Source: a virus
Lineage: Duplodnaviria; Caudoviricetes
IMG/VR virus record: IMGVR_UViG_3300043754_000129
Span: 96,001-160,000 of that record
Reading direction: 5' to 3' (one strand)
Length of the DNA stretch: 64,000 nt
In this document: piece after piece, positions 1-8,644 of the stretch
How the letters are laid out: each line of letters starts with the position of its first letter
Position numbering within the stretch: the first letter of the stretch is position 1
The notes under the pieces: model-generated
The model's database searches: none
What the model was told of the DNA's origin: nothing
The model's input: the letters and a program-made list of their open reading frames with translations, nothing else
Translations under genes and position numbers: made by a program

Positions 1-805
1 TATTGTTCCAATGAAGGAGTTGGGGGAGACCCGCCTCGCCATAGCGATCCTGGGGTCTCCCTCCGTTTTTGCTCTATGCTTACCACGCTGAGCAGTTGCG
101 GTCCCGTCATGACGTCGTACCTACAGGGTTGCAGGAATTATGGCCAGGCAGTCCCATTCCCATGTCAATGCAGCTCAAAGGCGGCGAACAGAGGGGATCG
201 GCGAAAGTGACTCTATATATGCAACTCATCCGGTAGGTCTAGTGTCGCTACCCTACTAAGGGTAGATTTACTCTTGGGAAAGCTTGCGAAAGGGCTAGAT
301 ATGGCCCAGGTTTATGCGTACGCCGGCGATTTCATGCCCCACCCCCTTAGCCTTTTACGCAAGGCCCTTATGCGCGTGTGATAAGTCAATTGGTCGTGAC
401 TAACCGTGCCAGCGAGATCTCGCCTGATGAAGGCCGTCGGCAATGTCAATGCATAGCGGACGATGCCATAGCGAGTTGGCCCCTAATACTCCCGGCGCTC
501 GCCGAGAGGTGTCGCGATACTAGATCCGGTCAATGAGTGCCCGTCCACCACAGTTCCCACACCGCAGTGATCGTCAGAAGCCGCATTCTCGAAGTCTAAC
601 CGCTAATTCCCGTCAAGGAACAAATCGATAATCTAGTCGAACCGTACATCCGTAAAGCTCCGGATCGTTCTCGCGAGCAGCAGCGCGCGTACACCGCGCG
701 GGTACAGGTCAGGGAATTCAGTCAGGCCTCGAATGCTATCGTAAAGTGCACCTACCTGTCCCCGCAAGAGGCCTTTCGCCTCCGAAGAATGCGCGCTGCC
801 CAAAC
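1..805 (+). ncRNA. Candidate large structured non-coding RNA (may begin upstream of the window)
   Basis: No credible ORF over ~800 nt. Nested helices: 119-133/220-238, 248-254/259-265, 583-589/786-792, 605-611/712-718, 724-730/768-774. GNRA-type loops at 201-208 and 283-292. G-U pairs mostly favour the + strand. Confidence 0.5.
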
Positions 806-1273
806 TTAACCCACCACGATCAGCGTGGTGTTCAATGCTTTCTTGTCCCACAGGTACTCGTAGACTGCGCGACGAGCAAAGTGGAACCAGTGACTGGCTT
901 CGTCAATCAGAAACTCGTCAAAGTCGCCCAGAGTACCATCGGCGATACGCACCTTGAGTTCATTGGCGGTGATGAGGCGGGCTTTCACGCTCTCTTCAAG
1001 TTCGCCACGGTCAAACCGGTGCGCCGACAACAGGCCTGTCCTGAGAAAGCTGTCGCGCACCACCATGAGCGCCTTCTCGTTGCCCATGATGCGTTTGACC
1101 ATCCAGTAGGACTTGCCCATCTGCCGCGGCACGTTGAAACCAACCGTGCGGTATTCGCCGAAGAAGGTCGGACCGAACGTATCGATGTGGCCGTACTTCT
1201 CAGCCACTTCTTGACCGTTCTTCAGACCAATCAGCAGCTCATTAACGATGAGATCGAAATCGATTCTTTTCAT
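806..1273 (-). CDS. Small P-loop NTPase resembling a truncated terminase ATPase domain
   Basis: Walker A-like VPRQMGKS and Walker B FLIDEA in a 155-aa ORF. Confidence 0.7.
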   Translation of the reverse strand: MKRIDFDLIVNELLIGLKNGQEVAEKYGHIDTFGPTFFGEYRTVGFNVPRQMGKSYWMVKRIMGNEKALMVVRDSFLRTGLLSAHRFDRGELEESVKARLITANELKVRIADGTLGDFDEFLIDEASHWFHFARRAVYEYLWDKKALNTTLIVVG

Positions 1274-1299
1274 TTGAGTGTGCCCTTGTGGAAAAACTG

Positions 1300-1626
1300 T
1301 TACAGCGAGTCGATGTCGACGGCGACAGCAGCTTCACCCGCGCGCGATTGCACGATGGCTGCCAGTTCTTCGTCTTCGATCTTCAGCGCTTTCTTGACGT
1401 AGTCGATGATCGACTGCGGCGTCGTGAACTTCTCGGCGTCTTCGTCTTCGATACGCAGATCGAATTCGTCTTCCGCAGCCATGGTGAGTTCCACCACGTC
1501 CAGGCTGTCACCGCCCAGGTCTTGTACGAACGACGAATCGTTCTTGACTTCGCTGATGGAAACGCCGAGTTGTTCGGCGACGATTTGCTTGACGCTTTGT
1601 TCGATCTGTTGTGCGGTCTTTGCCAT
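1300..1626 (-). CDS. acpP: Acyl carrier protein with a C-terminal extension
   Basis: IVAEQLGV...[24 protein letters not shown]; DSL phosphopantetheine-attachment motif intact; start placed at MAKTAQQ. Confidence 0.92.
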
Positions 1627-1636
1627 GATGGTCTCG

Positions 1637-2107
1637 TTACATCTTGAACTTGGTGACCACGGGCTCACCCGTATCGAAGGTCACCACCAGGGCCGTGCCG
1701 AAGTCGTCTTCGGGCCACGGGTCAGGATACTCGTGATGCTTGGCCCCGAGACCCTTGAGGAGGTCGGGGATCTTGCCGTGATGCCAACAGATCAGCGTGA
1801 TGGGGTCTGCCAAATCCAGGCAGCTCACCAAGCTCTTGCCCAACTCGCGGGCCTTGTCGTCTTCGATCGAGGCGATCAGTTGCGCGTTTTCGAGAGATTC
1901 GAACAGCGGCAGGATCGTCTGTAACGGCCGGATGCTGTGCGGGCTCGGAGCCGTCGCGTAAATGGTGTCGGGTGTCCCGAAGTTCTGGGGGATGTATTCC
2001 TTCCACTTTTCGGCGCGATGAAGGCCCAGGGCAGACAACCTTTGGTCGCCCTCTCGTATCGGCTTTTCTGCATGGCGAATGATGATGATCTTTTTCTGCG
2101 ACTTCAT
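1637..2107 (-). CDS. Histidine phosphatase superfamily protein (SixA/PGM-like)
   Basis: N-terminal IIIIRHAEK (RHxE motif) and a second His in ICWHHG. Confidence 0.8.
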
Positions 2108-2129
2108 TTCTGTTCCACCTGCTTTTGTA

Positions 2130-2780
2130 ATTAGGTCTCTTCGCTACTAACGCCGAGCCAGTTGGGAATGCCCACCCCGTTTGCGGACATTCCGAACCAG
2201 CCAAGTACGTGATTCGGTCTACACACTACCTCGCCAAAGCGATCCTGAGTGTGCAGATACAACAATGGTCTTCCTGACCTTACGATCTCGTGCGAAGCGG
2301 ATGCATGAGTTGGCCGTACCGACGCAAGTATTGGCGGCTTTCACCGCTGTAAGTCTTATTCGGCTTGACTGCTCCCACACATCAGTAACGTCTGCTCTCA
2401 TTCGGAACACATTAAGCGCGCCGGCGCCTCCCATGCCTGGAAGGTGTGAACTCAAGTCTCAGCAGTCCGTCAGTCCGCGATGATCAACCCACTAATAAGC
2501 GGGCTTGTATTTGTTCGTTTTAGGTTGGAAGAGGTACTGGCAAGCAGACGCGTCATTGTCCCTTTACCACAGTAAGTCTCGCCAGTGGGGGTGATCCATA
2601 CGGTCCCCGTTTGACCGCGGTATCTCGCCACCACTTTAGGCGCATGTGTAAAGGAGGGACGAAAGCCGAACGAACGCCCGTCGTTGGCTCTCTTGACGCG
2701 TTCCACTTGATCGTAAGTCGCTGCCAGCGAAGCGCTTGAATAATCGTGCGCCAGATGCCGTCAGCGAACCTACGAAACCA
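2130..2780. ncRNA. Second candidate large structured non-coding RNA
   Basis: ~650 nt with no credible ORF. Helices at 2165-2173/2185-2193, 2367-2373/2461-2467, 2376-2380/2444-2448, 2486-2492/2499-2505 and 2334-2347 (GAAA loop on - strand). Shares a motif with 25-60. Confidence 0.5.
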
Positions 2781-2781
2781 G

Positions 2782-3786
2782 TTAGAGCACCACGCCCGTG
2801 TCAGTCGCAACGTCGTTCTTGCCGATGATGTTGGCTTGCGCAACGCGCGCACCTTCATCCGTCTTGAACTCGTCGAGCACCTTGTTCAGATGCTTGGCGA
2901 CGTCACCGAACACGCCGTCGCTCGTCACGTAGTGGTACGGGCTCGACAGCGTCTTGCCGTTGAACGTACCATCCACGAAACCGACCTTCTGCATTTCCGG
3001 GCGCTTTGCGAGCGTCGGATCCAGACCGTCGGCGGCCAGCGTGGTGATCGAGATCAGATTGCCGATCTTATTCAGATCGGTATCGACCTTGTCGGTGAAC
3101 AGCGACAGCGCGACCAGGTTCGGCGAGTAGGACGTGACACGATGGAAGTTAATCCAGTTGTACAGGTCCATGCCGTCCAGTTCGCGATTGCGGCGCGAGA
3201 ACAGGAGCAGCAGTGCCGACACGAGGTCTTGCACGCGCGCGTCGACGGCGGCACGGTTCATGTCGCGGCCGTTTTGCAGGTAGTACATGACCACCGGCTT
3301 CTTGCGCGTGTTGATCGCGATGTTCTGGTACGACTTGATCGTCTTCAGCGTGTTCTCGGTCCACGTCTTCGTGGCATCGTCGCCGACCATCACGACGATC
3401 GTGAGCTTGTCGTTGCCGAGCAGTTCCGAGGTCAGGCAGGAAGCGAGCACGGCGCCCGTGCCACCACCGCCCGAGGAGACGACGATGTTCAGATCGGCAG
3501 GCTTGAACAGGTTGAGGATCTCACGCGTGCGTGGCGCGATGTCCTCGTAGTTCTCGGCGCGAATGCCGCCCGAGCCGTCCTTGCCGTCGACCAGGTAAAG
3601 CTTGTCAGCGGGGATGCCTGCGTGCAGGTTGGCCTTCGAGGTGTCCAGGTAGACCGTGTCGAGGTTGGCGAACACGTTCTGATCGGTTTGCTTGGTCAGC
3701 ATCGCGGCGACCTTGCTTCCGATATTGATACCGGCACCACCGCAGGAGAACAGCCGCACGAGACCCAATTCACGTTCGTGAGTCAT
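2782..3786 (-). CDS. phuZ: PhuZ phage tubulin (tubulin/FtsZ family)
   Basis: FSCGGAGINIG and VVSSGGGGTGA tubulin signature, DGSGG loop; start at MTHERELG (334 aa). Confidence 0.93.
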   Translation of the reverse strand: MTHERELGLVRLFSCGGAGINIGSKVAAMLTKQTDQNVFANLDTVYLDTSKANLHAGIPADKLYLVDGKDGSGGIRAENYEDIAPRTREILNLFKPADLNIVVSSGGGGTGAVLASCLTSELLGNDKLTIVVMVGDDATKTWTENTLKTIKSYQNIAINTRKKPVVMYYLQNGRDMNRAAVDARVQDLVSALLLLFSRRNRELDGMDLYNWINFHRVTSYSPNLVALSLFTDKVDTDLNKIGNLISITTLAADGLDPTLAKRPEMQKVGFVDGTFNGKTLSSPYHYVTSDGVFGDVAKHLNKVLDEFKTDEGARVAQANIIGKNDVATDTGVVL

Positions 3787-3850
3787 GTTTTCATTCCTTG
3801 GTGTTGGGGAGATGCTTCCTCCACATACGAGAGTGGAGGCACGTAAAAAA

Positions 3851-4183
3851 CTACCGGAGCCCCAGTTCGCGGAGTTCACGAGACACCAGCGATTGGGAAA
3901 TGTCCAGGTACTGCGCGATCTGCATTTGCGTCTGATGACACGCATGCAGCTTCTTGATCCAGATGCGACGCTCGTCCTTATTGAGGTCGTTCGGATCGAA
4001 GGCGTGACCGTCGAGCGTGTAGCGGTGGATGGCTTCCGTGAACACACCGTCATGCAGCGTGCTGCCATAGGCGACCATCAGGCCACCAGCGCCCGTGACC
4101 GTGAACTGATCGAAGCCTTCGAGTCCCAGCTCTTTGGCCAGTTTCTCGATGCTTTCCATCAGGTTATCCATGTGCGTTACCAT
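3851..4183 (-). CDS. Small protein with a C-terminal helix-turn-helix
   Basis: TQMQIAQYLDISQSLVSRELR HTH pattern; GGAG RBS upstream. Confidence 0.7.
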   Translation of the reverse strand: MVTHMDNLMESIEKLAKELGLEGFDQFTVTGAGGLMVAYGSTLHDGVFTEAIHRYTLDGHAFDPNDLNKDERRIWIKKLHACHQTQMQIAQYLDISQSLVSRELRELGLR

Positions 4184-4201
4184 TGCATTGCTCCTTCAAG
4201 G

Positions 4202-4588
4202 TTAGGGCGGGGTGCCCTCGTCGTAATACTCGCCACCTTCGTCATCCCAACCGAAGTTAGCGGCATCATTGGTTTCCGGGGCCGTACCTTCAATCGGTGC
4301 TTCCATCACGTCCTTCCGCCAGTTGACGTAGGACATCGACGGTGCTCCGACGTAGAACCGATCTTCCGGTTTGTGATTGGTCCAGCGCGCTTCCGTGACG
4401 GTGACCGGCGTCCCCAGCAGAATGCGGGCCACCTGGTCGAGCACCCACGCCTTGTGGTGCGCACCATCGATCTGACCGTACATGGCGATATACGTCATCG
4501 CCCAATCCGATTGCGTGTAAGTCTTGTAGACCGGGTGCGACTTGATGTCGACAGGGAATTCGCCTAGGTACTGGCCGGGGTCTGACAT
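4202..4588 (-). CDS. Hypothetical phage protein
   Basis: GAGG RBS; globular sequence containing YGQIDGAHHKAWVLDQVAR. Confidence 0.7.
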   Translation of the reverse strand: MSDPGQYLGEFPVDIKSHPVYKTYTQSDWAMTYIAMYGQIDGAHHKAWVLDQVARILLGTPVTVTEARWTNHKPEDRFYVGAPSMSYVNWRKDVMEAPIEGTAPETNDAANFGWDDEGGEYYDEGTPP

Positions 4589-4770
4589 GCTGCCTCCTGC
4601 TGGCGCTTGGCATAGATGCGGTCCGCTTCCGCTGAGAGGGCATCGGCGTCTTTGGCCAGCTGATCCATGCCTTTCAGGAAGAGTTCCATGTTCTGCTGAC
4701 GAATGCCTTGAATTGCAGCGTCGCAGGCTTTCTCACTACGGTAAGTTGCGAGGTCGATTACCTGACCCAT
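4564..4770 (-). CDS. Hypothetical protein
   Basis: AAGGAG RBS before MGQVIDL; fills the gap in a minus-strand operon. Confidence 0.6.
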   Translation of the reverse strand: MGQVIDLATYRSEKACDAAIQGIRQQNMELFLKGMDQLAKDADALSAEADRIYAKRQQEAACQTPAST

Positions 4771-4849
4771 TACTGGCTCCTTTGGGAAATCATTTGACAG
4801 GGCTACAAGGTGATGATATATCACCATTTCTTTTTTAGGAGGGGGATAT

Positions 4850-5653
4850 ATGAACCCGGTTCAAAAAGCTCTTGCGGAGGTCAAGTATCGCATTCCTCCA
4901 CAGGTGCTGCACACGGTGTTCGTCAAGCGCACGGAGCGCTGGCGAGATGCGCCAAAGAGTATCGATGAGCAGATCCTGAGTCTCGTCATCCGTCCCCGCG
5001 TGATGGTCGACGCCAATCTCGTGGGGGGTCGCGAAATCTGGATTCTGCTCGATGGCTGCCGTATCGGTGGGGACGATGTCTACGAATCTGTGTTCCGGAT
5101 TCCGAAGAACCGTACGAACGGTGCCTCTATCATGAGCGTGCTAAATATTTCTTTCGCAGATCCGTCGCGTATCAGCGCGGCAGGGGTGGCTGCGAACGGA
5201 CAGAACAACATGATGCTCCAAGCCGGTCAAGCGGTGATGGACGCCATGGGCATGATCCCGCAGACGTCGACGGCCCGTATCGAGTTGATCGGCGAGAACG
5301 TGGTGTTGGTCCGGGACGTGATGACGATGCCCGCCAACGCTTACCTGCGCTGTCTGGTGGGCAACGATGATAACCTGAACAACATCCAGTTGCGCAGCTA
5401 TCATCACTTCAGCAAGCTCGTCGAGTTTGCGGTGAAGTCGTACATCTACAACACGTACATCATCGATCTCGATATGGGTGAGCTGCGTGGTGGTCAGAAC
5501 CTGGGTCGCATCAAGGAGATCATTGACGGTTATGCCGATGCTGAGCAGAACTATCAGGACTACCTGCGCGAGAAGTGGACCAAGGTCGCGTATATGAACG
5601 ACAACGAACGCTGGAACCGCACGATCCGTGCCCTCCAGGGTGGCAATCGCTAA
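4850..5653 (+). CDS. Conserved phiKZ-like protein, probably virion structural
   Basis: Strong AGGAGG RBS, 267-aa ORF with phage codon bias, followed by a hairpin. Confidence 0.7.
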   Translation: MNPVQKALAEVKYRIPPQVLHTVFVKRTERWRDAPKSIDEQILSLVIRPRVMVDANLVGGREIWILLDGCRIGGDDVYESVFRIPKNRTNGASIMSVLNISFADPSRISAAGVAANGQNNMMLQAGQAVMDAMGMIPQTSTARIELIGENVVLVRDVMTMPANAYLRCLVGNDDNLNNIQLRSYHHFSKLVEFAVKSYIYNTYIIDLDMGELRGGQNLGRIKEIIDGYADAEQNYQDYLREKWTKVAYMNDNERWNRTIRALQGGNR

Positions 5654-5667
5654 AAAAAGAAGTAGCG

Positions 5668-5703
5668 GTCATAAGGCCCCGGGGAAACCCGGGGCTCTAT
5701 GCC
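5668..5703. terminator. CATA...TATG-footed GC hairpin between convergent genes
   Basis: CATAAGGCCCCGGG-GAAA-CCCGGGGCTCTATG preceded by an A-tract. Confidence 0.7.
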
Positions 5704-5710
5704 GTTGGCC

Positions 5711-6046
5711 TTAAGCCTTCGCAAGCAGCTTCTCGAGCTGGCGCTCGAGGAACGGACCCATGTACGACTCGCCAAAGCGCTCAGCGAAAGCTTCGGCGCC
5801 CAGCGCGTGATGCGTCAGGTTCACGTAGTTCATCGGCTGGCGATAGAGCTTCTTCGTGTGACGCTGCACGATTTCGATGACAGCCTTGGCCAGCGACGGG
5901 CGTGTGCGGCAAGTTGCGTTGGCGTCACGGATTTCCTGGGCGAGCGTGGGATACTTGTCCAGCCAGCCCTGCACCACCTTACGGGGAGGAACGGCTGCCA
6001 AAGCAGTCTTCGCGGCATCGATATCGACAACACCCTTCTTCTTCAT
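5711..6046 (-). CDS. Hypothetical protein
   Basis: 111-aa ORF between two hairpins; AAAGGT upstream. Confidence 0.65.
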   Translation of the reverse strand: MKKKGVVDIDAAKTALAAVPPRKVVQGWLDKYPTLAQEIRDANATCRTRPSLAKAVIEIVQRHTKKLYRQPMNYVNLTHHALGAEAFAERFGESYMGPFLERQLEKLLAKA

Positions 6047-7330: not shown

Positions 7331-8644
7331 TTAGGCGGCTTTCGGGCGACGCGCGCCGGCAGCTTCCGCGTCGACGAGGAAGTCGAGCGTGTCTTCGACC
7401 TGCGTCGCCAGGTTGTTTTCGATCTGATGCAGCATGTACTCGATCGGGTCACCGAACACGCGGTTCAGCACCATGAGCGAGAGGCCCGGCTGGTCGATGT
7501 CGCAACGCACGAGCGCCGAGAGGGCATGCGGAAGCACCGGCACGAAGTGGAATTCGTACGGATTCTTCTTTTCCTGTTCTTCGATCGTCGCGGCATCCGA
7601 CAGCGGCATGCCCTTGAGCTGCGCCACGAATTCATTCGCTTCGACGACCATGAAGACCGAACCCGCGAACGTGTGTTGCAAGACCACGCGCGTGCCGCAG
7701 GTGAACGTGTAGCGAACGTATTCGCCGTGCTCGAGCAGGCTCGGGCATTCTTCCGCCACGAACTGCATGAACGCATCGCGGTTGAAGATACGGCCGATGT
7801 CCTGACGGTTTTCGATCACGCCCCAGAAGCGCTCGAAGAACACGATGAACGGACGGATCGCCGAACGATCACGCACACGGAACTTCTGCAACGTATCGTC
7901 CGCGCGCTGGAACGCTTCGCCGATCACCTTCGTGAAGTTCATCGGGTGGATGGAGCATTCACGCGACGTGATATTGCCGTTGACTTCGTGCTTCACCACA
8001 CGCGAGATGTCGTGACGCGTGAGATGAGCGCCGCCTTCCTGGGCCCGTGCGAGCAGTTCCTTGATCTCGGCCGTGACCTTGTCCGTGTTCTCGGTACCCG
8101 GTGCCGTGGCGAGCGATGGATCAACCTTCGCGGTGGAGGGTGCGGAAGAAGACGTTGATTGCGTCGAGCTGTTCGGCGCGGTGGTTGCGCTCGGGCTGGA
8201 CGGCTTGCGGCTCTTTACCGCCGTCGACTTTTTTGCCGCCACCTTCTTGGCCGGAGCGTGTGCACCCGAGATGCCCGAGTTCGGGAGCTTCGGTTGTTTC
8301 GGATCGACCACCGGTGCCGGAGCCTTCGCGACCTTTTCGTCGAACAGCTTCTGCTTGGCTTCCTTGCGACCCTTGACCGGTTTCTCGATCAGAGCTGCCG
8401 GCACGCCATTCACGACCTTGCCTTGTTCGACCGACTTCTTGGCCGAGGTACGACGCGTGACGACGGCCGCATCTTGCGGGGTGTCTTTCGCGACAGGCTT
8501 CTTGACTGCCGGGGCTTTCTTCACCGCAGTCTTCTTGGCCACGGGTTTCTTGGCAGCTGCACGCTTAGCCGTCTCGTCGACGATGTGTTGAGCGATTGCA
8601 GCGGTGCCTGCGTTGGAGTTTGCTTTGTTTTTGGTCGTTGCCAT
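7331..8644 (-). CDS. Protein with a Lys/Ala/Pro-rich histone H1-like N-terminus and a globular C-terminus
   Basis: AAKKPVAKKTAVKKAPAVKKPVAK repeats, S/T linker, then an ordered domain. Confidence 0.75.
   Translation of the reverse strand: MATTKNKANSNAGTAAIAQHIVDETAKRAAAKKPVAKKTAVKKAPAVKKPVAKDTPQDAAVVTRRTSAKKSVEQGKVVNGVPAALIEKPVKGRKEAKQKLFDEKVAKAPAPVVDPKQPKLPNSGISGAHAPAKKVAAKKSTAVKSRKPSSPSATTAPNSSTQSTSSSAPSTAKVDPSLATAPGTENTDKVTAEIKELLARAQEGGAHLTRHDISRVVKHEVNGNITSRECSIHPMNFTKVIGEAFQRADDTLQKFRVRDRSAIRPFIVFFERFWGVIENRQDIGRIFNRDAFMQFVAEECPSLLEHGEYVRYTFTCGTRVVLQHTFAGSVFMVVEANEFVAQLKGMPLSDAATIEEQEKKNPYEFHFVPVLPHALSALVRCDIDQPGLSLMVLNRVFGDPIEYMLHQIENNLATQVEDTLDFLVDAEAAGARRPKAA

What the first reader, a model, noticed from the sequence alone, without database searches (positions are those of the whole stretch)
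2130..2780. Second ~650-nt structured tract directly downstream of phuZ
Seen: no credible ORF. GGAATGCCC 2165-2173/GGACATTCC 2185-2193, GACTGCT 2367-2373/AGCAGTC 2461-2467 enclosing CACAC/GTGTG, AACCCAC 2486-2492/GCGGGCT 2499-2505, and GCGG-CTTTCA-CCGC 2334-2347. A-C mismatches on + become G-U pairs on -, and the last hairpin has a GAAA loop on -, favouring the - strand (co-directional with phuZ). A few + strand GNRA candidates leave some doubt. (T/C)AAGTC recurs four times. Inference: an ncRNA or very long structured leader for the phosphatase-ACP-ATPase operon.
Basis: partly seen in the sequence, partly recalled or inferred. Interest (0 to 1): 0.75.

Follow-up and report, generated by a model that had tools for sequence, protein, structure and literature searches.

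The report
Conserved structured RNA after phuZ
The 674 bases after the tubulin gene phuZ of this soil jumbo phage are a conserved, pseudoknotted RNA element of no described family, and about its first third is also read as a small basic protein, so the stretch is real and new, but its job is unknown.

Summary
The tract (window 2108-2781, RNA on the minus strand) is real. The same element follows the phuZ stop codon in 14 distinct related jumbo-phage sequences (PhuZ 51-77% identical). A weaker match occurs in one more distant phage.

Structure is well supported. In the 5' domain 91.5% of cells pair, against 77% when shuffled and about 38% when slid. 29 of 45 pairs show compensatory changes, including a pseudoknot. 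G-U outnumbers A-C 66 to 16, which fixes the strand. Permissive Rfam scans find no family: no intron, riboswitch, GOLLD or ROOL.

The +1 frame after the phuZ stop has 0 stop codons in all 14 sequences, against 33 and 31 in the other frames. All seven indels there are multiples of three. An ATG or GTG sits 37 nt before the stop in 13 of 14. The product is basic, with a predicted N-terminal helix.

A stem/CAGGA-loop/hairpin module of the 3' domain recurs in the neighbouring tract (window 24-61) and in relatives.

Best reading: a cis-acting structured intercistronic RNA, dual-coded with a small ORF, inside a phuZ-to-ACP-cluster transcript. Its function is inferred, not shown, and no RNA data exist. 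This scan's other notes on this genome flagged similar large RNA candidates.

The parts
2782..3786 (-). phuZ (334 aa tubulin-like protein); its stop codon abuts the element
   Evidence: Pfam Tubulin and TubZ_C_2. 40 homologues, 13 of them at 51-100% identity.
2108..2781 (-). Whole conserved element, from the phuZ stop to the ribosome-binding site of the next gene
   Evidence: nhmmer E 1e-55 to 1e-122 against 13 other distinct sequences, always directly after phuZ. No Rfam match.
2553..2858 (-). orfX: ORF in the +1 frame relative to phuZ. The listed form starts at ATG 2858; an alternative TTG lies at 2810. Stop codon TGA at 2553-2555. The part from 2595 to 2781 is kept open and in phase in all relatives.
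   Evidence: 0 stops in this frame in 14 sequences, against 33 and 31 in the others. All indels are multiples of 3. ATG or GTG at -37 in 13 of 14 relatives. Synonymous and conservative changes in the W-L-R-D-L-F and D-T-A-V-K-R blocks. AlphaFold2 predicts a helix at residues 2-31 with pLDDT about 87-90.
2711..2775 (-). H1: long imperfect hairpin starting 4-7 nt after the phuZ stop
   Evidence: All 14 members fold their first 60-100 nt into one long hairpin although the sequences differ.
2695..2701 (-). H2, 5' strand (ACGCGUC); pairs with 2548-2554
   Evidence: 97.6% of cells paired. Compensatory U-A to G-C in this phage. L016 has CUCUCGG/CCGAGAG, read from the alignment.
2661..2692 (-). H3 hairpin
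   Evidence: All 11 pairs show changes on both sides.
2656..2660 (-). H6, 5' strand (GUCCC); pairs with GGGAC at 2558-2562 and stacks on H2
   Evidence: 83% of cells paired. GUCUC/GAGAC in L016 and GUCCU/AGGAC in L011. Moderate support; an alternative partner GGAC at 2597-2600 is not excluded.
2595..2621 (-). H4 hairpin (ACCGC-GGUC-AAACGGG-GACC-GUAUGGA)
   Evidence: All 4 inner pairs covary: GGUC/GACC, CGUA/UACG, ACCA/UGGU. GCGU/ACGC in the distant L277.
2578..2586 (-). H5, 5' strand; pairs with 2536-2544 and crosses H2/H6, which makes a pseudoknot
   Evidence: Six of 9 pairs change on both sides; 95% of cells paired.
2536..2562 (-). 3' strands of H6 (2558-2562), H2 (2548-2554) and H5 (2536-2544)
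   Evidence: positions, with the H6 3' strand taken at the second GGGAC.
2513..2533 (-). Conserved unpaired pyrimidine-rich block (CUCUUCCAACCUAAAACGAAC)
   Evidence: Conserved in alignments A1 and A5. Pairing with the downstream Shine-Dalgarno site was tested and rejected.
2486..2506 (-).
   Evidence: Six of 8 pairs change on both sides.
2295..2475 (-). Variable middle domain. It is closed by GAUC...GCG (2476-2485) pairing with CGC...GAUC (2284-2294).
   Evidence: RNAalifold consensus. AAUC/GAUU in L023 is one compensatory case. Length varies from 87 to 204 nt between members.
2267..2279 (-). H9 hairpin GGUC-AGGAA-GACC (GUUC-AGUGA-GAAC in other members)
   Evidence: One pair switches G-C to U-A in 4-5 members.
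2218..2257 (-). H10 module: 10-bp stem, CAGGA internal loop, 4-bp stem with tetraloop, GGU on the return strand
   Evidence: All 13 members that were folded give the same shape with different stem sequences. The same module lies at window 24-61 and in the second tract of 8 relatives.
2156..2202 (-).
   Evidence: 92% of cells paired; 5 of 14 pairs change on both sides; 0 of 500 shuffles reach the covariation score.
2105..2120 (-). Shine-Dalgarno site AGGUGGA (2114-2120) and ATG (2105-2107) of the 156-aa gene

Best explanation
The tract is a conserved, multi-domain structured RNA segment on the minus strand. It most likely lies inside a transcript that runs from phuZ into the 156-aa / ACP / 155-aa gene cluster.

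Shown by comparison:
(1) The element is present, in the same place and orientation, in 14 related jumbo-phage sequences. A weaker match occurs in one more distant phage.
(2) It folds into a 5' domain (long hairpin H1, then H2-H6 forming a pseudoknot, then H7), a variable middle domain, and a 3' domain (H9, the CAGGA-loop module H10, and the long hairpin H11).
(3) About its first third is also a reading frame (orfX). It starts inside the 3' end of phuZ and is kept open and in phase through H1-H4. It encodes a small, very basic peptide with a predicted N-terminal helix.

Inferred:
The element acts in cis on this transcript, as a folded platform for processing, stability or translational control of the flanking genes. 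It probably works by binding a protein at conserved loops such as the CAGGA module. Ribosomes reading orfX would have to melt the 5' domain. Translation and folding of that domain are therefore mutually exclusive, which would give a natural switch.
For: Family and position.

Covariation in the 5' domain: 91.5% of cells paired against 77.3% shuffled and 37-45% slid. 29 of 45 pairs change on both sides. 0 of 500 shuffles reach the observed value on any of the five measures.

3' domain: 89.9% paired against 78.8% shuffled. H10 has the same shape in 13 of 13 members. H1 forms in 14 of 14.

Strand: G-U 66 against A-C 16. Fold z-score -3.2 against -1.6.

No sigma-70-type promoter or intrinsic terminator on the minus strand inside the tract. 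A terminator-like hairpin comes only after the 155-aa gene, at 812-830. The element runs from the phuZ stop to the next gene's ribosome-binding site.

Reading frame: 0 stops against 33 and 31. 0 against 14 and 14 distinct stop sites. Seven indels, all multiples of 3. ATG or GTG at -37 in 13 of 14, made by a T-ending phuZ codon (AAT, AGT, GGT or GAT) whose T-ending usage is only 17-31%.

In the distant L277, a 77-codon ORF starts with ATG directly after the phuZ stop. It reads the conserved ACCGC...GUAUGG hairpin in the same codon phase.

The CAGGA module recurs in the second tract.
Against: No expression data. Only soil DNA runs hold the sequence, and no RNA run was listed. Transcript ends, processing and translation are therefore all inferred.

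Promoters of the phage's own RNA polymerases were not searched for, so an internal start is not excluded.

Amino-acid change in orfX is close to neutral overall: 2-10 synonymous against 8-37 non-synonymous codon changes per pair. There is no consistent Shine-Dalgarno site before the -37 start. This phage itself lacks the -37 start codon.

The one concrete cis mechanism I could test, pairing of the pyrimidine block with the downstream Shine-Dalgarno site, failed.

The sample is 14 sequences from one clade. Shuffle controls do not remove relatedness, although the slid controls do.
Confidence: 0.5

Rival explanations
1. A stand-alone, stable large non-coding RNA. It would be cut out of the transcript, for example at the long H1 hairpin by RNase III, and act in trans. 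That would make it functionally comparable to the large ornate phage-associated RNAs GOLLD and ROOL.
For: Size of 0.5-0.7 kb, many covarying helices, a pseudoknot and conserved loops. No known family matches. A tRNA array lies 1.9 kb further along the same strand, and tRNAs follow the second tract in two relatives. H1 has the shape of a double-strand-specific processing site in all 14 members. By the abstract of a cryo-EM study (doi 10.1101/2024.12.08.627333, listed; I did not read the full text), GOLLD and ROOL are large ornate bacterial RNAs with solved structures. Their link to phages and tRNA genes is from my own knowledge.
Against: About the first third is kept as an open reading frame, which is not expected of a free structural RNA. 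No terminator or promoter frames the element. Its 3' end runs into the next gene's ribosome-binding site. It fails the Rfam models. No abundance data exist.
Confidence: 0.25
2. Essentially an unannotated small protein gene (orfX) with a long 3' untranslated spacer. On this reading the RNA helices are incidental.
For: Frame conservation and the conserved start codon. Synonymous changes in two peptide blocks. Confident N-terminal helix. The helix is amphipathic in 9 of 14 members.
Against: Compensatory changes inside the ORF (H3 11 of 11 pairs, H4 4 of 4) and far beyond it (H5, H7, H9-H11) cannot come from protein selection. Third codon positions are invariant in the RNA blocks. Amino-acid change is near neutral. 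orfX has no homologues outside the clade. The 300-450 nt after the ORF are as conserved as the ORF itself.
Confidence: 0.1
3. A programmed +1 frameshift at the phuZ stop codon, stimulated by hairpin H1 4-7 nt downstream. It would make a minor PhuZ isoform with a basic, amphipathic C-terminal extension.
For: The open frame begins exactly at the stop. UAACUGG is conserved in 11 of 14. The hairpin sits at the spacing usual for recoding signals. This phage lacks the -37 start. FLC9 also has 64 open +1 codons after its phuZ stop.
Against: The last sense codon varies (CUC, CUG, UUG, CUU) and offers no re-pairing in +1. An ATG or GTG at -37 is conserved in 13 of 14. In L277 the equivalent ORF is in frame 0 with its own ATG right after the stop.
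Confidence: 0.07
4. A self-splicing intron, a decayed mobile element or gene, or non-functional spacer DNA.
For: Jumbo phages do carry introns and homing elements (review PMC13282480). The tract is ORF-poor.
Against: No group I or II intron model matches, even at E up to 10. phuZ ends at its conserved C-terminus, so no gene is interrupted. There is no similarity to the genes that follow phuZ in other phages. Conservation with covariation excludes neutral spacer.
Confidence: 0.03

Closest known systems
GOLLD and ROOL large ornate RNAs of bacteria and phages
   Same: Several hundred nucleotides long, with many conserved helices and pseudoknots. Carried by phage DNA, with tRNA genes in the neighbourhood. 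Function unknown.
   Different: No match to either Rfam model. Here about the first third is also a conserved reading frame, and the element sits between two genes with no transcription signals of its own. Whether it forms oligomers is unknown.
RNase III processing hairpins between genes of phage T7 (from my own knowledge)
   Same: H1 is a long imperfect hairpin right after a stop codon in a polycistronic phage transcript.
   Different: This covers only the first 70-100 nt. T7 sites are single hairpins, not 0.5-kb pseudoknotted elements. Cleavage is untested.
Structured leaders with a translated leader ORF (attenuator-type control; from my own knowledge)
   Same: A short ORF is read through RNA that can fold in other ways, upstream of an operon.
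   Different: The ORF is 75-100 codons rather than about 15. There is no terminator/antiterminator pair and no run of regulatory codons. The structure extends 300-450 nt beyond the ORF.
3'-end +1 frameshift extensions of phage structural proteins, e.g. Listeria phage PSA (from my own knowledge)
   Same: An open +1 frame starting at a stop codon, with a stable structure just downstream.
   Different: No conserved shift-prone codon. A conserved internal start codon is present. A distant relative has a separate ATG-started ORF in frame 0.

Membership tests
Any Rfam 15 family (including GOLLD, ROOL, group I and II introns, riboswitches, RNase P, tmRNA, 6S) | Match to the family covariance model at or near its gathering score | tested here: not met
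   No hit at E up to 1 in window 1-6000. Only three chance-level hits of 11-13 bits at E up to 10 in the tract alone. Nothing relevant in relative L014 across both tracts.
Group I or II self-splicing intron | Interrupts a host gene whose exons join to an intact reading frame | tested here: not met
   phuZ ends at the conserved C-terminal G-[VLM]-V-L in all members and in relatives that lack the element. The next gene starts with its own Shine-Dalgarno site and ATG.
Conserved structured RNA (generic criterion) | Base pairs kept through compensatory changes, beyond shuffled and slid controls | tested here: met
   29 of 45 pairs, 92 cells, 0 of 500 shuffles; 0 of 500 shuffles for pairing and covariation score. 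Searches agree.
Cis-regulatory leader or intercistronic element | Same strand as the flanking genes, no promoter or terminator of its own, and it abuts the downstream ribosome-binding site | tested here: inconclusive
   No sigma-70-type promoter or intrinsic terminator inside on the minus strand. The element ends at the ribosome-binding site. Promoters of the phage's own polymerases are not covered by the scan, and no RNA data exist.
Cis-regulatory leader or intercistronic element | A conserved pairing that hides the downstream ribosome-binding site | tested here: not met
   Duplex energy between the pyrimidine block and the Shine-Dalgarno region averages -6.4 kcal/mol for matching pairs and -6.6 for mismatched pairs.
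Protein-coding gene (orfX) | Frame kept open, indels in threes, start codon conserved | tested here: met
Protein-coding gene (orfX) | Purifying selection on the amino-acid sequence | tested here: inconclusive
   Overall counts are near neutral. Two blocks show synonymous and conservative changes. The overlapping RNA constraint confounds the test.
Programmed +1 frameshift site | Conserved shift-prone codon before the stop, plus a downstream stimulatory structure | tested here: not met
   The structure is present. The codon before the stop varies and cannot re-pair in +1. L277 has a separate ATG-started ORF.
RNase III processing site | Cleavage by RNase III within a hairpin of about 20 bp or more | not testable with these tools
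   Only the hairpin shape is shown.

The most novel reading that the evidence does not exclude
The element is the RNA half of a phage-made ribonucleoprotein. On this reading the small, very basic orfX peptide, encoded within the RNA's own 5' domain, binds conserved loops of this RNA and of the neighbouring tract, such as the shared CAGGA module. Together they would form a large ornate particle comparable to the GOLLD and ROOL assemblies. It might act on the fate of phage transcripts or tRNAs after they leave the phage nucleus.
Probability: 0.12. Interest if true: 0.85.

Novelty: new variant of a known kind. Interest (0 to 1): 0.66.

Why it matters
Large conserved structured RNAs of unknown function are rare, and several of the known ones are tied to phages.

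This one belongs to nucleus-forming jumbo phages. In these phages transcripts are thought to be made inside a ribosome-free compartment and translated only after export (review PMC13282480). An RNA whose 5' domain must be melted by ribosomes is therefore an interesting object in that setting.

The element gives RNA biologists a compact target of 0.5-0.7 kb. It has a covariation-supported secondary structure with a pseudoknot, and a repeated loop module that looks like a binding site.

It also adds an unannotated, dual-coded small ORF next to phuZ. Gene callers missed it in most of the contigs examined; only the Caballeronia-type contigs (L014, L015) carry a 72-aa call in this frame, and two similar calls are on record.

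Members occur on contigs of Caballeronia arationis LMG 29324 and Paraburkholderia sp. BCC1886 assemblies, so experiments may be possible.

Tried and rejected
- Similarity to phage GenBank records: none.
- Similarity of the tract to the 770-nt gap after phuZ in Burkholderia phage FLC9, the nearest cultured relative (PhuZ 41%): none by blastn, nhmmer or covariance model. That gap has no tRNA and no credible Rfam match (one chance-level microRNA hit of 24.8 bits against a gathering score of 82).
- Decayed copy of the genes that follow phuZ in RSF1, RP12, RTH11 or FLC9: no tblastn signal.
- Paralogy between this tract and window 1-805: only the 19-nt core of the CAGGA module is shared.
- Pairing of the conserved CUUCCACCU block with the downstream Shine-Dalgarno site: energies for matching and mismatched pairs are equal.
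- Homologues of orfX outside the clade: none. No Pfam, PHROG or NCBIfam match.
- Expression evidence: five soil DNA runs only; no RNA run was listed.
- A 14-base motif scan of viral contigs was too unspecific.
- Most of the 89 metagenome and genome hits to the H4 pattern were chance. The covariance-model hits in L098, L053, L021 and L025 were selected by that pattern and have no phuZ nearby.
- Relatives with PhuZ at 41% identity or less have their next ORF 16-265 nt after phuZ, apart from two outliers (an overlapping ORF in L239; 1159 nt in L264), and give no match.
- A covariance model of the 3' domain was not built, because MAFFT misaligns H10. H10 rests on single-sequence folds.

Full report
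**Setting**

The window is bases 96001-160000 of a 323,678-bp virus record rated 100% complete. All genes near the finding lie on the minus strand:
- phuZ at 2782-3786 (Pfam Tubulin and TubZ_C_2).
- The tract at 2108-2781.
- A 156-aa gene at 1637-2107.
- An acyl carrier protein at 1300-1626 (NCBIfam acyl carrier protein above cut-off).
- A 155-aa gene at 806-1273.
- A second ORF-poor tract that runs from window 805 to 430 nt before the window start.
- Seven tRNA genes.

The 156-aa and 155-aa proteins match no named family.

**The observation**

The minus strand of the tract folds better than shuffles (-258 kcal/mol, z -3.2). The plus strand does so less (-222 kcal/mol, z -1.6). Rfam finds nothing, in window 1-6000 at E up to 1 or in the tract alone at E up to 10. 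GenBank phages hold nothing similar.

**Relatives**

PhuZ homologues at 51-77% identity exist in soil metagenomes and in two bacterial assemblies. Their contigs all show an ORF-poor gap of about 485-730 nt directly after phuZ. In most, the same 156-aa and ACP genes follow.

A profile of the gap finds 14 distinct sequences at E 1e-55 to 1e-122, always starting at the phuZ stop. Phages with PhuZ at 41% identity or less have their next ORF 16-265 nt after phuZ, apart from two outliers (an overlapping ORF in L239; 1159 nt in L264), and give no match. FLC9 has a 770-nt gap with no detectable similarity.

A covariance model of the 5' domain (R1) does find a weak but correctly placed match in L277 (E 1.3e-4). 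L277 is a phage with PhuZ at 46% identity that lacks the ACP cluster.

**Structure**

RNAalifold on the 5' domain gives 37 pairs, 23 of them with compensatory changes. I curated a structure on alignment A5 that includes a pseudoknot. It scores as follows:
- 91.5% of cells paired, against 77.3% after shuffling and 37-45% when partners are slid.
- 29 of 45 pairs, and 92 cells, change on both sides.
- 0 of 500 shuffles reach the observed value on any measure.

The helices, in window coordinates:
- H1, 2711-2775: a long hairpin found in all 14 members.
- H2, 2695-2701 with 2548-2554.
- H3, 2661-2692.
- H6, 2656-2660 with 2558-2562.
- H4, 2595-2621.
- H5, 2578-2586 with 2536-2544. It crosses H2 and H6.
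- H7, 2486-2506.

H2 and H6 rest on fewer events, seen in this phage, L016 and L011. An alternative partner for GUCC is not excluded.

A variable middle domain of 87-204 nt follows. It holds a lineage-specific insertion.

The 3' domain has three parts:
- H9, 2267-2279.
- H10, 2218-2257.
- H11, 2156-2202.

H9 and H11 give 89.9% of cells paired against 78.8% shuffled. H10 folds to the same shape in 13 of 13 members with different stem sequences: a stem, a CAGGA internal loop, a short stem with a tetraloop, then GGN on the return strand.

G-U cells outnumber A-C cells 66 to 16, so the RNA is the minus strand.

- Helices 1 and 3 are parts of H11 and H7 and are confirmed.
- Helix 2 and the GAAA hairpin lie in the lineage-specific insertion and are not conserved. 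A competing pairing for helix 2 has compensatory changes in L008 and L016 (by eye).

**A reading frame**

The frame shifted by +1 from phuZ is open from inside phuZ to well past H4 in every member. From the stop codon to the GUAUGG motif it has 0 stop codons in 14 sequences. The other two frames have 33 and 31. In the rest of the tract the three frames have 70, 68 and 74. Counted as distinct alignment sites, the figures are 0 against 14 and 14.

All seven indels in this stretch are multiples of three. After GUAUGG the phase is scrambled.

Thirteen of 14 members have ATG or GTG 37 nt before the phuZ stop. It is formed by a phuZ codon that varies in meaning (Asn, Ser, Gly or Asp) but always ends in T. 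Such T-ending codons make up only 17-31% of usage in these phuZ genes. This phage lacks that start. It has ATG at 2858 and TTG at 2810 instead.

Amino-acid change is close to neutral overall. Two blocks nevertheless show synonymous or conservative changes:
- W-[LIW]-R-D-L-F.
- D-T-A-V-K-R, where GCG GUC AAA CGG becomes GCC GUA AAG AGG.

The peptides are basic (pI 9.3-12.0). AlphaFold2 with the 14-sequence alignment gives a confident helix for residues 2-31 and disorder after it. The helix is amphipathic in 9 of 14 members. No homologues exist outside the clade.

In L277 the equivalent ORF starts with ATG directly after the phuZ stop. It reads the conserved hairpin in the same codon phase. This favours an independently started small gene over a +1 frameshift fusion to PhuZ.

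**A shared module**

A scan for the H10 architecture finds two strong copies in the whole genome, both on the minus strand: 2218-2257 and 24-61. About 0.7 weak matches are expected by chance. Eight relatives also carry a second copy, in the tract after the ACP cluster.

**Transcription context**

No sigma-70-type promoter or intrinsic terminator lies on the minus strand inside the tract. A terminator-like hairpin follows the 155-aa gene at 812-830. The element ends at the ribosome-binding site of the next gene. Promoters of the phage's own polymerases could not be searched. No RNA run holding the sequence was listed.

**Interpretation**

Conservation and structure are shown. Translation of the +1 frame is strongly indicated by comparison. 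Function is inferred.

- I favour a cis-acting intercistronic element in which ribosome passage through orfX and folding of the 5' domain exclude each other, with conserved loops as protein-binding sites (0.5).
- A released, stand-alone large RNA comes next (0.25).
- The one specific cis mechanism I could test, hiding of the ribosome-binding site, failed.

A 2026 review of jumbo phages notes only that phiKZ expresses non-coding RNAs and that ChmC binds phage mRNA and small RNAs. It describes no element of this kind (PMC13282480).

**Limits**

- There are 14 sequences, all from one clade.
- The alignments are from MAFFT, partly hand-interpreted.
- H10 is supported by single-sequence folds rather than column counts.
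- E-values from R1 are rough.

Noticed in passing
window 24-61 (minus) and the tract from window 805 to 430 nt before the window start: The second ORF-poor tract carries a near copy of the H10 module (GGGAGACCC-CAGGA-UCGC-UAUG-GCGA-GGC-GGGUCUCCC). Eight relatives have the same module, with a 12-bp GC-rich stem, near the 3' end of their second tract. In two of them it lies just before a tRNA or a gene.
   Followed up: partly
genome 93912-95569 (2089 to 432 nt before the window start), minus strand: An array of seven tRNA genes (Gln, Asp, Glu, Ser, Asn, Ile, Thr) lies downstream of the second tract. L011 has a similar array of seven and L013 a tRNA 8 nt after the module. The other nine relatives examined have none there.
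   Followed up: partly
window 812-830 (minus): A terminator-like hairpin with a partial T run lies right after the stop of the 155-aa gene. It is the only such site on the minus strand between phuZ and the second tract.
   Followed up: no
L014/L106 (Caballeronia arationis LMG 29324 contig, 143,740 bp) and L023/L088 (Paraburkholderia sp. BCC1886): Members of this phage clade sit on contigs of cultured Burkholderiaceae assemblies. This hints at the host range and at strains in which the element could be studied.
   Followed up: no
L003 6994-7763 (Burkholderia phage FLC9): FLC9 also has a 770-nt unannotated gap after phuZ. It has no tRNA and no similarity to this family, but 64 open codons in the +1 frame after the stop. 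Its next two genes (gp10, gp9) are homologous to genome 93336-93707 and 92642-93319 here. The ACP cluster, both tracts and the tRNAs therefore lie between conserved neighbours.
   Followed up: partly
L275, L276, L277 (PhuZ 46-49% identical): These intermediate relatives lack the ACP cluster but keep a single gap of 314-668 nt after phuZ. Only L277 matches the 5'-domain model. The two tracts of this clade might descend from one tract split by insertion of the ACP cluster; this is untested.
   Followed up: partly
L011/L012 about 7610-7700: These two members carry an insertion of about 130 nt in the loop of H11. It holds a called 46-aa ORF and shows that the loop tolerates large insertions.
   Followed up: no
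window 1637-2107 and 806-1273 (minus): The genes flanking the ACP have no Pfam or NCBIfam match. One hits only PHROG 2586, of unknown function.
   Followed up: partly
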